This document shows, one piece after another, positions 19,010 through 21,535 of a DNA stretch of 64,000 nucleotides (positions within the stretch are counted from its first letter, which is position 1; every line of letters begins with the position of its first letter). A model generated the notes under the pieces. The model did not search any database and was not told where the DNA came from. It saw only the letters and a program-made list of their open reading frames with translations. The DNA is from a virus, in the UHGV virus genome UHGV-0117053; one strand, 5' to 3'. The translations under genes and the position numbers were made by a program.

Positions 19010-19711
19010 TTATTCTGATTCTCGCTCAAAAAATGAGCTGATAAGGGGAAGCCAATCCTCTGACACTTCGCGAGGTCGCGGTTTGCCGTGGAAAAAGATT
19101 ATTCGGCAGTCTTTTGGTAATGCCCCATTCCCCCTGGAGTAACGCGCGCTCGCATATTTTGAACCAGGTTCGACAACATCGGCCTTGTAACTTACAAACC
19201 ATCCTGGATACAGATCCTGAAATGCTGGTGTATCATCGCCCATAACCTTTCGTAAGAACCCCTGGTCACCCCAACACTCAGTAGTGACACAACGAGAAAT
19301 CCAACCTTCCGGATCTTGCCAGAATGAACTCCAGATATGCGCTTTAACACTATTTGGTATCCACAGGGCACCGCTGCCACGATATTGTGGATGGTAAAAA
19401 TCCCTAAGCATGGTGAAGCTGGTTGGTGGATGCTCTAGGATTGGGCGTATATCACCGGCAATAACCGTGTCCAAATCCAGATAGAACAGATCATCGGTTA
19501 TATCCGGTCGGAACAACTCGATTTTCGCCCACCAGCCACGGCACTTTTGCCACTGGTTGATCAATGGGACAACTTTGACGCCAGGTACATGTAAACGCTT
19601 CAGGTCTGTCAGGCAAATAATTTCATAGCCTTTTGGCAGTTGATTAACCAGCCACTGCACATCGGAAGCGTTATAGTCACCACCAGAGCGAAAAACTAAA
19701 GCAATCTTCAT
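19010..19711 (-). CDS. Putative GT-A type nucleotide-sugar transferase (233 aa)
   Basis: N-terminal beta-strand KIALVF and a DLD (DxD-like) motif in [11 protein letters not shown]; assignment tentative. Confidence 0.5.
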
Positions 19712-20400
19712 GCTGCACCATCACCTTTCACTTTCATCAATGTCAGGTTTCCGCAAAATACGGCACCAGTGTCGATATACTGCTGATTCCAGAATGTCTT
19801 CGGGCTTTTCACCGGAGTGTGACCAAAGATAAAACGATCTGCGCCCGAAATTTCGCCACCAATATCATCCATCGAATCACTGATACGCTCGCGCTCCCAG
19901 ACAACGTTGAAAAGCGGCACCTCCTTACCGAATTGGTATTCATTATCCGGATAGTCGGCATGGGCTATAACGATAGTTTCTTGCCCCGTGTTCAACTCAA
20001 TGATATAGGGCAGACGCTTTACCAGCTCCACCAGCGCCCAGGCTAATATTTCCTGATCAGTGTCCAGCATGAAGAACCATTGTCCGCCATTCATTAGCCA
20101 GTTATTCACGTTGCCATCTGGACTTAACGCATCAATCATCAGCCGCTCATGGTTCCCCATCACTGCCCTGAACCAGGGCATCTGCAATAGTTCCAGACAT
20201 TCGACATTTTCAGTACCGCGATCGATAAGGTCGCCGACCGATATCAGTAAATCCTGCGCCGGGTCAAAATCCACACGATGGAGTTCGGACATCAGTCTGG
20301 TGTAGCAACCATGCAGATCACCAACAACCCAGACATTCCTGTATTTGGTACCGTCGATACGGTGATAAATTGTGGGTGCCATCATGTATTCTTCAGCCAT
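19708..20400 (-). CDS. ppp: Ser/Thr protein phosphatase, lambda-PPase-like metallophosphoesterase (230 aa)
   Basis: GDLHG, GDLIDRG and GNHE metallophosphatase motifs. Confidence 0.85.
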
Positions 20401-21008
20401 TCTTTAAGAGTCATCTGCGGAATACCTCCCATTTTCCCGCATGAAACAACGTCAATCTGTTCACGCGCAGACTGGAATAACAAAGGCAGGTGACTTAGAT
20501 TTTTTGGCGTGCCGCCGGAGTGAACGCGTAGTTCTTGCGTAGCGTCAACGCCCACCAGAGCTACATGTTTGAATCCGATATGGAAAGCCAGGTTCAGAGC
20601 ACCATATGCACTATTGCCGCTGGCAATTTCATTCTCATCTTCGCAAAGGCCGAAATGTGCGGACCAGCGCCACGCCCACCACTCGGGAGAATTCGTATTT
20701 TTTGGCTCCATGCCGCGTTCAGCCACACGACGGAAGCACAGAACGCCATCTCTGACTTCACGTTCTTTAACATCGGGTAGTGCCATGCAATAACAAACAC
20801 CACGGCGACGGCGGCCACGACCAACGCGCCGCATATTGTCTGGGGATGGATCAAGGGTGAAAAAATAAGAAGCGCGGTTAAGCCAGTCGATGGCCCCATT
20901 GACCGCTATAATCGGCACTCCGCGCGGCGCAACAAAGTTTGCGGCGCTTGGGCCACTGCCGACGATAATAACGCGATCACTGCCTCTAAATTTATTCTTG
21001 GGAAACAT
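20382..21008 (-). CDS. Rossmann-like protein with GSGPS motif (208 aa), possible GT42/DUF115-type transferase
   Basis: [14 protein letters not shown]...IIAVNGAI; paralog of the adjacent upstream gene. Confidence 0.55.
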
Positions 21009-21535
21009 TGAATTGCACTGCTCCTACTTGCATTCAAAATATGTAAATCTGCGTGTTTTTTGCGGGTATCCAGGAACTGCTGTTGCCATTTTGAAATAGA
21101 CACCTGCGTTGGATTCCGTAGTGCTTGAGGGTGCGCGCCATGCCAATGAAGGCCGTTTTGCAGAGAACAGTCATAGCCGACTAATACCACTACTTCAGCC
21201 CCTGATTCAGCAGCCAGACTGATAGCCTGCGCGCCGCTATTTACCCCTTCCGCCGGTCCACAATATCGCCTGTACTCCAACGAAAATGATTTCGCCGCCG
21301 CCAGGTTGGCTGTCACTTTGCGGAATCTCCCTCCCGGTATGGTGGATCCGTATTGCTTCCACCATGACAAATCACCGGCGTATAAGGCATAAATGTCATC
21401 GAACATCTGCCAGGAATTGTTAACCGCGATGATTGAACAGCCAGTTTTTTCTATAGCAGCACAGTCCTCACGAGTGAGTGACGGACCGCTACCGACACAA
21501 AAAACAGTCCTAGTCGCCCTGGGTGGTATGTTCAT
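20906..21535 (-). CDS. Rossmann-like protein with GSGPS motif (about 209 aa), paralog of 20382-21008
   Basis: TVFCVGSGPSLT...IIAVNNSW; start placed at the internal MNIPP. Confidence 0.55.
   Translation of the reverse strand: MNIPPRATRTVFCVGSGPSLTREDCAAIEKTGCSIIAVNNSWQMFDDIYALYAGDLSWWKQYGSTIPGGRFRKVTANLAAAKSFSLEYRRYCGPAEGVNSGAQAISLAAESGAEVVVLVGYDCSLQNGLHWHGAHPQALRNPTQVSISKWQQQFLDTRKKHADLHILNASRSSAIQCFPRINLEAVIALLSSAVAQAPQTLLRRAECRL

What the first reader, a model, noticed from the sequence alone, without database searches (positions are those of the whole stretch)
19010..21535. Glycosyltransferase-like gene cluster around the Ser/Thr phosphatase
A DxD-containing GT-A-like ORF, the lambda-PPase-like ppp, and two tandem Rossmann paralogs with a GSGPS/GSGPSL motif (reminiscent of GT42 or DUF115 transferases) lie together. 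A GT4 gene is coupled to ban at 27503-28501 and a HAD phosphatase lies at 16867-17373. This enzyme set suggests modification of a sugar or nucleotide substrate, on phage DNA, a virion protein or the host surface.
Basis: partly seen in the sequence, partly recalled or inferred. Interest (0 to 1): 0.5.

Follow-up and report, generated by a model that had tools for sequence, protein, structure and literature searches.

The report
Phage P1 three-enzyme glycosylation cassette
The region is phage P1's pmgO-pmgP-ppp-pmgQ operon: three of its genes form a sugar-adding enzyme cassette shared by many unrelated phages, its target is unknown, and the phosphatase gene is a later insertion.

Summary
The window is phage P1 (99.4% identical over the region). 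The finding covers pmgQ, ppp, pmgP and pmgO on the minus strand.

**Observation: confirmed.**
- PmgQ has a GT8/glycogenin-like GT-A fold with an invariant DxD.
- PmgO and PmgP are distant paralogues (hhalign 99.5%). Their fold is that of Maf, MptE (DUF115) and Cst-I (GT42).
- Ppp is a lambda-phosphatase orthologue.

**What is new.**
- pmgO, pmgP and pmgQ form a conserved mobile cassette. They co-occur in every non-P1 phage locus where all three were searched for.
- Natural fusions exist: O::P, P::Q, Q::P and Q::P::methyltransferase.
- A variable slot holds another GT-A, a GT2, a methyltransferase or a sulfotransferase. In the P1/P7 lineage it holds ppp.
- The cassette always lies in late head, packaging or lysis modules. 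In four HK97-like phages it lies between the capsid and head-completion/connector genes.
- No locus carries sugar-nucleotide synthesis genes.
- PmgP aligns collinearly but weakly with WaaZ, the CMP-Kdo KdoIII transferase.

**Best reading.** A lytic-cycle glycan-building module, probably acting on a virion protein. LPS remodelling is the main rival.

**Not linked.** Ppp, Pap and Dbn show no linkage to the cassette outside P1, and a DNA target is unlikely.

The genes are known and dispensable for plaque formation; their function is untested.

The parts
19010..19711 (-). pmgQ: GT8-like (glycogenin/LgtC-type) retaining GT-A glycosyltransferase, 233 aa
   Evidence: PHROG 1962, E 2.5e-128. No Pfam hit. 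Invariant DLDT, WWxK, GDQ, SYK and FHGxPRP motifs. Profile against PDB: Gat1 6mw5 E 1.6e-6, GlyE 5gvv E 2.5e-3. Model pLDDT 94.5, with Foldseek top hits all GT8.
19708..20400 (-). ppp: lambda-type Mn-dependent Ser/Thr protein phosphatase. A lineage-specific insertion in the cassette's variable slot, not part of the conserved cassette.
   Evidence: Metallophos E 8.9e-16. 1G5B E 8.3e-95. Present in the P1-like loci L101, L102, L116 and L124 but absent from L088 and from every non-P1 cassette.
20382..21008 (-). pmgP: second Maf/MptE/GT42-fold paralogue, 208 aa, the most conserved cassette member. Collinear but weak match to WaaZ (GT73 Kdo transferase).
   Evidence: PHROG 2111. PF01973 E 3.4e-4, sub-threshold. 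328 homologue clusters. 545 representatives at E<=1e-3. hhalign to PmgO 99.5%. WaaZ profile E 3.6e-4 over 187 columns.
20906..21568 (-). pmgO: first Maf/MptE/GT42-fold paralogue, 220 aa (209 aa if it starts at 21535)
20906..21008 (-). 103-nt pmgO/pmgP overlap. The pmgP ATG lies inside PmgO's conserved CFP codons, and pmgP is in the -1 frame.
   Evidence: Read directly from the sequence. The -1 frame relation and a 40-109 nt overlap are present in 9 of 10 loci. A natural O::P fusion, P0092, exists.
21510..21665 (-). pmgN: small ORF (51 aa) that heads the transcription unit. Function unknown; not conserved with the cassette outside P1-like phages.
   Evidence: P1 annotation. PHROG 2350. No PmgN-like ORF near non-P1 cassettes.
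21709..21764 (-). C1 operator Oppp (Op83; 21709-21725) and the predicted sigma-70 promoter PpmgN (21738-21764), transferred from the P1 annotation. They place the operon under repressor control, so it is lytic-cycle expressed. The operator is annotated on the opposite strand to the genes; the promoter is on the gene strand.
   Evidence: P1 record features. The window differs from P1 at 3 of 121 positions in this stretch, none of them within the operator or the promoter hexamers.
18943..19008 (.). C1 operators OpmgRb and OpmgRa with promoter PpmgR. This is the downstream boundary of the unit and the start of pmgR-pmgS.
   Evidence: Operator-consensus matches at 18943-18959 and 18992-19008. P1 annotation.
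Possible GT-B (GT1/GT4-type) C-terminal domain. No detectable link to the cassette.
   Evidence: Glycos_transf_1 at 25.0 bits against a cut-off of 26.4. No PDB sequence match. Not found near non-P1 cassettes.
HAD phosphatase of the polynucleotide kinase-phosphatase type. No detectable link to the cassette.
   Evidence: PF25109 HAD_PNKP E 3e-11, 44.1 bits against a cut-off of 27.6. PHROG 415. DIDGT motif in the translation. Not found near non-P1 cassettes.

Best explanation
pmgO, pmgP and pmgQ of phage P1 are a conserved, horizontally mobile glycan-building cassette.

**Enzymes.** PmgO and PmgP are divergent paralogues with the Maf/MptE/GT42 'GT-A variant' fold. Both keep the sialyltransferase-type motif set: GxGPS; N at the end of strand 2; (T/N)SG or GNS; GxD; a conserved His. 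They work as a pair: their genes overlap, and in some phages they are fused.

**Donors (inferred).** PmgO and PmgP are inferred to transfer a CMP-activated ulosonic acid. No cassette carries sugar-nucleotide synthesis genes, and all named hosts are Gammaproteobacteria. The most plausible donor is therefore host CMP-Kdo, as for the distantly similar WaaZ. PmgQ is a GT8-type retaining DxD transferase, inferred to use a UDP-hexose.

**Product (inferred).** Together they would assemble a short glycan. In other phages that glycan would be further decorated by enzymes in a variable slot: a fourth GT-A, a GT2, a methyltransferase or a sulfotransferase.

**Timing and target.** In P1 the annotated C1 operator and late promoter upstream imply lytic-cycle expression. 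In other phages the cassette lies inside late head, packaging or lysis modules, so it presumably acts in the lytic cycle there too. The acceptor is most likely a virion protein, which is the least certain inferred step.

**Not part of the cassette.** ppp is a lambda-phosphatase gene sitting in the variable slot of the P1/P7 lineage. dbn and pap are unrelated to the cassette.

**Shown versus inferred.** Shown here: folds, paralogy, synteny, fusions and context. Inferred: donors, product and acceptor.
For: - **Identity:** the region matches P1 at 99.4%.
- **PmgQ:** GT8 fold and motifs.
- **Paralogy:** PmgO against PmgP, hhalign 99.5%, E 6.7e-23.
- **Motifs:** GNGPSL and TSG...GID of CstII align with PmgO's motifs.
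- **Synteny:** all three genes are present in every non-P1 locus scanned with all three profiles: L003, L006/L087, L088-L095, L175, L176.
- **Fusions:** O::P P0092; P::Q P0222 and P0292; Q::P P0306; Q::P::methyltransferase P0271.
- **Variable slot:** a fourth GT-A family, GT2 and methyltransferase, sulfotransferase at E 6e-15.
- **Context:** between the capsid gene and the head-completion/connector genes in four HK97-like phages. After terminase and portal in P2-like phages, and between lysis and terminase genes in lambda-like phages.
- **No sugar-nucleotide synthesis genes** appear in any annotated context.
- **Possible acceptor:** in L175 a Thr-Pro-rich (TEP)n protein lies between the capsid gene and the cassette.
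- **WaaZ link:** WaaZ itself is a sub-threshold PF01973 relative, E 6.9e-7. It aligns collinearly with PmgP, E 3.6e-4 over 187 columns. P0092 carries a faint precomputed PF27901 WaaZ_KDO_III hit.
- **Precedent:** mycobacteriophage virion glycosylation, Freeman 2023 as described in PMC11256854.
- **Dispensability:** not needed for plaque formation, as expected for a non-structural accessory function (PMC10695390; PMC9024508).
Against: - No biochemical or mass-spectrometric evidence of glycosylated P1 virion proteins is known. The P1 virion proteomics paper never mentions glycosylation.
- The WaaZ/GT73 link is statistically weak: hhalign probability 37-50%.
- PmgO, PmgP and PmgQ all fall below Pfam gathering thresholds.
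- Both enzyme families also have LPS-core members (WaaZ; WaaJ/WaaO, LgtC), so an LPS target fits the enzymology equally well.
- A Ser/Thr/Pro-rich neighbour was seen in only 2 of 11 loci.
- No conserved candidate acceptor gene accompanies the cassette.
- P1 also has a predicted early C1-controlled promoter for the operon, which is not what a purely virion-directed function requires.
Confidence: 0.55

Rival explanations
1. The cassette remodels host LPS during lytic growth rather than a virion protein. PmgO/PmgP would add Kdo to the inner core as WaaZ does. [quoted passage not shown] PmgQ would add or relocate a hexose as the GT8 core enzymes WaaO, WaaJ and WaaR do. This would mask or remove the LPS-core receptor, so that progeny are not lost on debris and superinfection is reduced.
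For: - Both enzyme families have LPS-core members. WaaZ is a PF01973-like protein and aligns collinearly with PmgP.
- PmgQ aligns with WaaJ at E 3.6e-4, including the DxD and the H..G..KPW-type motif. LgtC is among the fold hits.
- Incorporation of a third Kdo is coupled to outer-core truncation (PMC6358824).
- From my own knowledge, P1 adsorbs to the LPS core.
- All named hosts are Gammaproteobacteria.
- P1 has a C1-controlled, early-type promoter for the operon.
Against: - In most phages the cassette sits in late operons, after the Q antiterminator and lysis genes or inside head modules. That leaves little time to replace surface LPS before lysis.
- Known phage LPS-conversion genes are expressed from the prophage, whereas this operon is annotated as repressor-controlled in P1.
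- Sulfotransferase and methyltransferase tailoring is unusual for LPS inner core.
- No membrane-anchoring features were noted.
Confidence: 0.22
2. PmgO and PmgP are not glycosyltransferases. They are nucleotide-dependent pyrophosphokinases like MptE and thiamine pyrophosphokinase, making a small phosphorylated metabolite. PmgQ acts separately.
For: - The only Pfam family hit is named for MptE.
- The GYDCS and GVDAT motifs loosely recall the GDxDS motif of thiamine pyrophosphokinases (my own recollection, not tested).
Against: - The N-terminal GxGPSL and (T/N)SG...GxD motifs align with CstII.
- The proteins are fused to, and always syntenic with, a GT8 transferase. They are accompanied by further GTs, methyltransferases and a sulfotransferase. 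That is the signature of glycan assembly, not cofactor metabolism.
- WaaZ, a Kdo transferase, is the nearest characterised sequence relative tested.
Confidence: 0.08
3. The transferases together with Ppp, Pap and Dbn form one pathway that modifies a sugar or nucleotide substrate on phage DNA, as an anti-restriction hypermodification.
For: - All these genes lie within about 12 kb in P1, and several are C1-controlled.
- Phage DNA glycosylation by virus-encoded GTs is a known strategy (papers listed).
Against: - Ppp, Pap and Dbn do not accompany the cassette in any non-P1 locus.
- L088 has the cassette without ppp.
- The P1 pmg single-gene knockouts (24 of 29 without defect) showed no change in antirestriction activity (PMC9024508).
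- From my own knowledge, P1 encodes no hydroxymethyl-pyrimidine pathway that would give a sugar an attachment point.
- Sulfotransferase and GT2 partners, and positions inside head modules, do not fit DNA modification.
Confidence: 0.04

Closest known systems
Maf (motility accessory factor) flagellin nonulosonic-acid transferases, PF01973/DUF115 (structure 5MU5)
   Different: PmgO and PmgP are about 200-aa single domains without Maf's flanking domains (5MU5 is 632 aa). Sequence identity is about 16%. No flagellin-type acceptor is present. From my own knowledge, E. coli K-12 makes no pseudaminic or legionaminic acid.
WaaZ (CAZy GT73), the CMP-Kdo:KdoIII transferase of the E. coli K-12 and Salmonella LPS inner core
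   Same: Also a sub-threshold PF01973 relative, E 6.9e-7. Collinear alignment with PmgP through the SGP(S/T), IIAVNG, TxD, AYxAxxxAYxL...GxDxT and LSxLP motifs. Its donor, CMP-Kdo, is available in every host of the cassette.
   Different: The similarity is statistically weak: hhalign probability 37-50%, E about 1e-4. WaaZ is 283 aa, chromosomal, and lies in the waa operon. It has no paired paralogue and no linked GT8 gene fusion.
GT42 sialyltransferases Cst-I and CstII of Campylobacter
   Different: Sequence matches are not significant (E 0.16-0.7). From my own knowledge, the host lacks CMP-Neu5Ac, so the label is almost certainly wrong as a statement of specificity.
GT8 retaining transferases: glycogenin, Skp1 alpha-galactosyltransferase Gat1, GlyE, LgtC, WaaJ/WaaO
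   Same: PmgQ shares the fold (Foldseek E 1e-8 to 1e-7, TM 0.56-0.62). It shares the DxD and the C-terminal H-x-G-x-(K/R)-P motif.
   Different: No hit to any Pfam model, including that of GT8. Identity is 10-16%. PmgQ is shorter (233 aa). The family is small and phage-restricted, with 41 clusters found.
Mycobacteriophage virion glycosylation (Che8 and relatives; Freeman et al. 2023, as described in PMC11256854)
   Same: Phage-encoded glycosyltransferases, said there to attach glycans to the major capsid protein and form a glycan shield.
   Different: Different enzyme families and Gram-positive-type hosts. In those phages glycosylation was shown experimentally; here it is only inferred from gene position.

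Membership tests
CAZy GT8 / Pfam Glyco_transf_8 (PmgQ) | GT-A fold of the glycogenin/LgtC type | tested here: met
   Model pLDDT 94.5. The top 50 Foldseek PDB hits are nearly all GT8 enzymes: Gat1, glycogenin, GlyE, LgtC, LARGE1, XXYLT1.
CAZy GT8 / Pfam Glyco_transf_8 (PmgQ) | DxD metal/nucleotide-binding motif and C-terminal H-x-x-G-x-x-K-P-W-type motif | tested here: met
   D79-L-D81 and F-H208-G-x-P-R-P213 are invariant or nearly so in 33 sequences. They align with the YIDADA and NPKPWE motifs of Gat1 and with LYLDADVV and TGATKPWH of WaaJ.
CAZy GT8 / Pfam Glyco_transf_8 (PmgQ) | Sequence match to the curated family model above its threshold | tested here: not met
   No Pfam family at E<=1 and no NCBIfam hit. 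Only a profile-to-PDB match to a GT8 enzyme, E 1.6e-6.
CAZy GT8 / Pfam Glyco_transf_8 (PmgQ) | Retaining transfer from a UDP-hexose | not testable with these tools
   Needs an enzyme assay.
Pfam PF01973 MptE-like / DUF115 (PmgO, PmgP) | Score above the gathering threshold (34.6 bits) | tested here: not met
   PmgO 23.4 bits and PmgP 20.9 bits. Some homologues carry precomputed PF01973 hits, and the O::P fusion P0092 scores 44.6 bits.
Pfam PF01973 MptE-like / DUF115 (PmgO, PmgP) | Fold shared with Maf and MptE | tested here: met
CAZy GT42 sialyltransferases (database label of pmgO) | Significant sequence similarity to Cst-I/CstII | tested here: not met
   Profile against PDB gives E 0.16-0.74, with no stretch significant on its own.
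CAZy GT42 sialyltransferases (database label of pmgO) | Donor-site motifs (GxGPS loop, N after strand 2, TSG, GxD) and a catalytic His | tested here: inconclusive
   The motifs are present and align. Equivalence of invariant H141/H143 (PmgO) or H173 (PmgP) to CstII His188 was not established by structural superposition.
CAZy GT42 sialyltransferases (database label of pmgO) | Use of CMP-Neu5Ac | not testable with these tools
   From my own knowledge, E. coli K-12 does not make CMP-Neu5Ac. No neu genes appear in any cassette locus.
CAZy GT73 / Pfam PF27901 WaaZ_KDO_III | Sequence homology to WaaZ | tested here: inconclusive
   An 11-sequence WaaZ profile against PmgP: probability 37%, E 3.6e-4, collinear over 187 columns. 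Against PmgO: probability 50%, E 1.6e-4 over 79 columns. P0092 has only a 'faint' precomputed PF27901 hit. The PF27901 model is not in the local Pfam copy.
CAZy GT73 / Pfam PF27901 WaaZ_KDO_III | Transfer of Kdo from CMP-Kdo | not testable with these tools
   Needs an assay with KdsB-generated CMP-Kdo.
Lambda-type PPP-family Ser/Thr phosphatase (Ppp) | Metallophosphoesterase domain and close similarity to lambda phosphatase | tested here: met
   PF00149 at 59.3 bits against a cut-off of 21.5. 1G5B E 8.3e-95 over residues 11-229. PHROG 246, NinI-like. It falls below the PrpA/PrpB equivalog cut-offs (272.8 against 326), so it is not filed as PrpA/B.
GT-B GT1/GT4-type transferase (Dbn) | Pfam Glycos_transf_1 above threshold | tested here: not met
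   25.0 bits against a cut-off of 26.4, E 1.5e-5, C-terminal region only. No PDB sequence match.
HAD phosphatase, PNKP type (Pap) | Pfam HAD_PNKP above threshold and the DxDGT motif | tested here: met
   44.1 bits against 27.6. VDIDGT is at residues 18-23 of the translation.
Phage virion-glycosylation systems (mycobacteriophage type) | Glycans covalently attached to capsid or tail proteins, dependent on the phage transferases | not testable with these tools
   Only positional evidence: the cassette lies between capsid and connector genes in four HK97-like phages.

The most novel reading that the evidence does not exclude
P1 and many other phages of Gammaproteobacteria O-glycosylate a virion protein with a short glycan containing Kdo or another ulosonic acid. 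The glycan would be built by a self-contained PmgO/PmgP/PmgQ module from housekeeping host donors (CMP-Kdo and a UDP-hexose). To my knowledge this would be the first virion glycosylation shown in a classical coliphage and the first protein-linked Kdo.
Probability: 0.15. Interest if true: 0.8.

Novelty: new variant of a known kind. Interest (0 to 1): 0.5.

Why it matters
- **Old unknowns.** pmgO, pmgP and pmgQ have been labelled 'putative morphogenetic' in the P1 record (Lobocka et al., cited in PMC9024508). Today they carry only automatic labels, one of which ('alpha-2,3-sialyltransferase') is probably wrong in specificity.
- **One experiment instead of three.** Recognising them as one conserved, fusion-linked glycosylation cassette turns three orphan genes into a single testable module. 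The cassette moves between P1-, P2-, lambda- and HK97-like phages.
- **If the target is a virion protein.** Glycan shielding would not be confined to mycobacteriophages. That bears on phage therapy, through antibody recognition and stability, and on P1 as a transduction tool.
- **If the target is LPS.** It would be a lytic-cycle receptor-masking system.
- **Annotation.** Either way, ppp, pap and dbn should not be annotated as parts of this pathway.

Tried and rejected
1. **First viral scan.** The scan with the PmgP alignment returned only P1 copies. It was repeated with a non-P1 first sequence.
2. **AFDB50 fold search.** Unavailable, so WaaZ could not be compared by structure.
3. **WaaZ comparison.** Single-sequence WaaZ against the profiles was too weak. 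A WaaZ profile from a genome scan had low diversity (Neff 1.5) and improved the result only to E about 1e-4.
4. **Conserved acceptor gene.** jackhmmer with PmgR and PmgN found relatives only in a P1-like contig. Ser/Thr/Pro-rich neighbours were real in only 2 of 11 loci; the rest were out-of-frame ORFs or spanins.
5. **Programmed -1 frameshift fusing PmgO to PmgP.** P1 has an in-phase AAATTTA heptamer, but it is not conserved in relatives. Rejected as evidence.
6. **Fourth GT-A family.** Not found anywhere in the window.
7. **Dbn.** No PDB sequence relatives.
8. **Taxonomy of the fusion proteins.** All are unnamed metagenomic sequences.
9. **Literature.** Searches for DUF115/MptE/Maf in phages and for pmgO/P/Q functions found nothing beyond essentiality screens. 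Freeman 2023 and Frirdich 2003 are not held.
10. **Serratia locus L004.** It has PmgO-like genes (twice), a PmgP-like and a PmgQ-like gene scattered among non-phage genes, and was not informative.
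Full report
**What the region is.** The stretch 18900-21700 is 99.4% identical to phage P1 (NC_005856), and 98-99.8% identical to P7, SJ46, RCS47 and other P1-like phage-plasmids. On the minus strand the finding covers four genes:
- pmgQ, 19010-19711
- ppp, 19708-20400
- pmgP, 20382-21008
- pmgO, 20906-21568

They are preceded by pmgN (21510-21665), pmgM (a VRR-NUC protein) and pmgL.

The P1 record places a C1 operator (Oppp/Op83) and a predicted sigma-70 promoter just upstream of pmgN. A late promoter lies upstream of pmgL. The window differs from P1 at only 3 of 121 positions across the operator/promoter stretch, none inside the annotated elements. Two further C1 operators directly downstream of pmgQ start the pmgR-pmgS unit. 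By annotation the operon is therefore repressed in the lysogen and expressed during lytic growth.

PmgQ:
- It has no Pfam or NCBIfam hit.
- 33 homologues share invariant D79-L-D81-T, WWxK, GDQ, SYK and FHGxPRP motifs.
- A profile of them hits the GT8 enzymes Gat1 (6mw5, E 1.6e-6) and GlyE (5gvv, E 2.5e-3).
- An AlphaFold model (pLDDT 94.5) matches glycogenin, Gat1, GlyE and LgtC at Foldseek E 1e-8 to 1e-7.

PmgO and PmgP:
- They share the GSGPS motif, but BLASTP sees little more (E 0.003).
- Profile against profile they are clear paralogues: hhalign 99.5%, E 6.7e-23.
- Both give sub-threshold PF01973 (MptE-like, formerly DUF115) hits.

Others:
- Ppp is a lambda-phosphatase orthologue (1G5B, E 8e-95).
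- Pap is a HAD phosphatase of the polynucleotide kinase-phosphatase type.
- Dbn reaches only a sub-threshold GT1-type score (25.0 against 26.4 bits) and has no PDB sequence relative.

**What related loci show.**

*Synteny.* In a Pseudomonas prophage (L006) the order is major capsid, PmgO-like (35% identity), PmgP-like (62%), PmgQ-like (42%), a 193-aa protein, then the head-completion gene (Phage_HCP). In an unrelated metagenomic phage (L003), PmgO and PmgP are one 376-aa fusion protein. It is followed by a PmgQ-like gene and a homologue of the 193-aa protein.

A scan of viral contigs with a non-P1 query, searched with my own HMMs, found all three genes together in each of the nine further non-P1 loci taken from that scan (L087-L095). 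The same holds in two further contexts.

*Fusions.* An exhaustive profile search finds 545 PmgP-family representatives. Among the top 150 are these natural fusions:
- PmgP::PmgQ (P0222, P0292)
- PmgQ::PmgP (P0306)
- PmgQ::PmgP::methyltransferase (P0271)
- methyltransferase::PmgP (P0304), identified from the printed sequence only and not confirmed by a profile search

Synteny plus fusions in all combinations is strong evidence that the three proteins act in one pathway or complex.

*Coupling.* pmgO and pmgP overlap by 103 nt in the window. The pmgP start codon lies inside PmgO's conserved CFP codons. A 40-109 nt overlap with pmgP in the -1 frame recurs in 9 of 10 loci, which is consistent with coupled expression.

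**The variable slot and the status of ppp.** Other genes appear between pmgP and pmgQ, or just after pmgQ:
- A fourth family of about 190 aa with an SFYT start and a W(I/V)D(A/V/C)D motif, in L003, L006, L090, L092 and L095. Its similarity to nucleotide-diphospho-sugar transferases is weak.
- A GT2-like protein in L095 and a SAM methyltransferase in L093.
- A methyltransferase in L176.
- A carbohydrate-type sulfotransferase in L175 (E 6e-15).

In P1, P7 and close relatives this slot holds ppp (L101, L102, L116, L124). The more distant P1-like contig L088 has pmgL-pmgM-pmgO-pmgP-pmgQ-pmgR-pmgS with no ppp. So ppp is a lineage-specific insertion. The other slot occupants are all glycan-building or glycan-tailoring enzymes, which argues that PmgO and PmgP are transferases and not MptE-type pyrophosphokinases. 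Dbn and Pap were not found within 8 kb of any non-P1 cassette.

**Genomic position.**
- In four independent HK97-like phages the cassette sits between the major capsid gene and the head-completion/connector genes: L006/L087, L093, an ENA contig and L175.
- In P2-like phages it follows the terminase and portal genes (L090, L092).
- In lambda-like phages it lies between the lysis genes and the terminase (L089, L176).
- In L003 it follows holin, endolysin and spanin; in L094 it precedes the terminase.

These are all late-transcribed regions. None of the annotated contexts contains sugar-nucleotide synthesis genes. In L175 a 133-aa protein with a (TEP)n Thr-Pro-rich tail lies between the capsid gene and the cassette. 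In L006 a Ser/Thr-rich 93-aa protein follows it. This was not general, and no conserved acceptor gene was found.

**Likely donors.**
- The cassette carries no donor-synthesis genes, and all named hosts are Gammaproteobacteria. The donors must therefore be housekeeping metabolites.
- From my own knowledge, CMP-Kdo is the only CMP-ulosonate in E. coli K-12.
- WaaZ is the KdoIII transferase of the K-12 core (PMC6358824), classed with GT-A-fold CMP-Kdo transferases of GT73 (PMC5811610). It is itself a sub-threshold PF01973 relative (E 6.9e-7).
- A WaaZ profile aligns collinearly with PmgP through all conserved motifs, but weakly: E 3.6e-4, probability 37%.
- The fusion protein P0092 carries a faint precomputed PF27901 WaaZ_KDO_III hit.

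I treat CMP-Kdo as the leading but unproven donor for PmgO/PmgP, and a UDP-hexose as the donor for PmgQ.

**Target.** Two readings survive.

*Virion protein (favoured, roughly 0.4-0.45 of the total).*
- The cassette is placed inside head modules and expressed late.
- Methyl and sulfate tailoring enzymes accompany it.
- The best structural relatives (Maf, Gat1, glycogenin, GlyE) glycosylate proteins.
- There is a precedent in mycobacteriophage virions (Freeman 2023, via PMC11256854).

*LPS core remodelling (about 0.2).*
- GT8 and WaaZ-like enzymes are exactly the classes that build the enterobacterial core.
- PmgQ aligns with WaaJ.
- A third Kdo goes with outer-core truncation, which could remove the P1 receptor.
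- Against it, late expression leaves little time to replace surface LPS, and known conversion genes are expressed from the prophage.

A DNA target is unlikely. The enzyme classes and partners do not fit it, and the knockout study reports that 24 of 29 single-gene mutants had no plaquing defect and no change in antirestriction activity (PMC9024508).

**What is already known.**
- The genes are annotated in P1. RefSeq/PHROG labels are 'glycosyltransferase' for pmgQ and 'alpha-2,3-sialyltransferase' for pmgO.
- CRISPRi knock-down of pmgO, pmgP, ppp, pmgQ, pap and dbn does not affect plating, and the same table lists them as non-essential by knockout (PMC10695390).
- I found no paper assigning a function, a target or the cassette concept.

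**Verdict.** There is a real glycosylation module, but it consists of pmgO, pmgP and pmgQ only. ppp is an insertion, pap and dbn are unlinked, and DNA is an unlikely target. The cassette is a new variant of a known kind (phage-encoded glycosylation), with moderate interest (0.5). The folds, paralogy, synteny, fusions and context are shown. The donors, product and acceptor are inferred and are directly testable with P1 deletion mutants that already exist.

Noticed in passing
window 20906-21008 (minus strand): pmgO and pmgP overlap by 103 nt, with pmgP in the -1 frame. P1 has an in-phase canonical slippery heptamer, A_AAT_TTA, 15 nt into pmgP, which would fuse PmgO to PmgP. The heptamer is absent from relatives, so it is probably chance. 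The overlap itself and the -1 relation are conserved (9 of 10 loci).
   Followed up: partly
window 21510-21665 (pmgN): CRISPRi scores pmgN as essential (efficiency of plating 1.4e-2), while the knockout study lists it as non-essential. Knock-down of the downstream genes pmgO to pmgQ is harmless, so polarity on them does not explain the discrepancy (PMC10695390).
   Followed up: no
L175 6154-6555: A 133-aa protein between the capsid gene and the cassette has a (TEP)n Thr-Pro repeat tail. It has weak hits to DUF7210 (E 9.5e-4) and to a PhiKZ capsid decoration protein (E 3.4e-3). It is a plausible O-glycosylation acceptor or head decoration protein.
   Followed up: partly
L006 9254-9835; L003 11757-12335; L090 8555-9139; L092 8555-9139; L095 9222-9797: An uncharacterised family of about 190 aa (N-terminal SFYT..W.Y and a W(I/V)D(A/V/C)D motif). 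It has only a weak Nucleotid_trans similarity. It accompanies the cassette in five loci and is absent from the P1 window.
   Followed up: partly
L088 6857-7404: In a distant P1-like contig (101.8 kb), pmgO is split into two overlapping ORFs (118 and 115 aa). This may be a frameshift or pseudogene, while pmgP and pmgQ are intact and ppp is absent.
   Followed up: no
L004 (Serratia plymuthica chromosome) 4513-5819, 10001-10558, 17207-17785: PmgP-like and PmgQ-like genes, plus two PmgO-like genes, lie scattered over 13 kb. Around them are Big_1 proteins, a lipoxygenase, a lipase, a phage lysozyme and a holin. This is an odd, possibly degraded or non-phage context for the cassette.
   Followed up: no
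window 21732-22310 (pmgM): pmgM, upstream in the same transcription direction, is a VRR-NUC nuclease-like protein (PF08774 E 3e-4, sub-threshold; PHROG 5702 Holliday junction resolvase E 4.8e-27). It is conserved with pmgL in P1-like contigs but not with the cassette elsewhere.
   Followed up: no
window 20906-21568 and public annotation: The RefSeq/PHROG product name 'alpha-2,3-sialyltransferase' for pmgO, also used for some pmgP homologues, rests on fold-level similarity only. PDB sequence E-values are 0.16-0.74, so the name is likely misleading about specificity. The typo 'norphogenetic protein' has spread through many records.
   Followed up: yes
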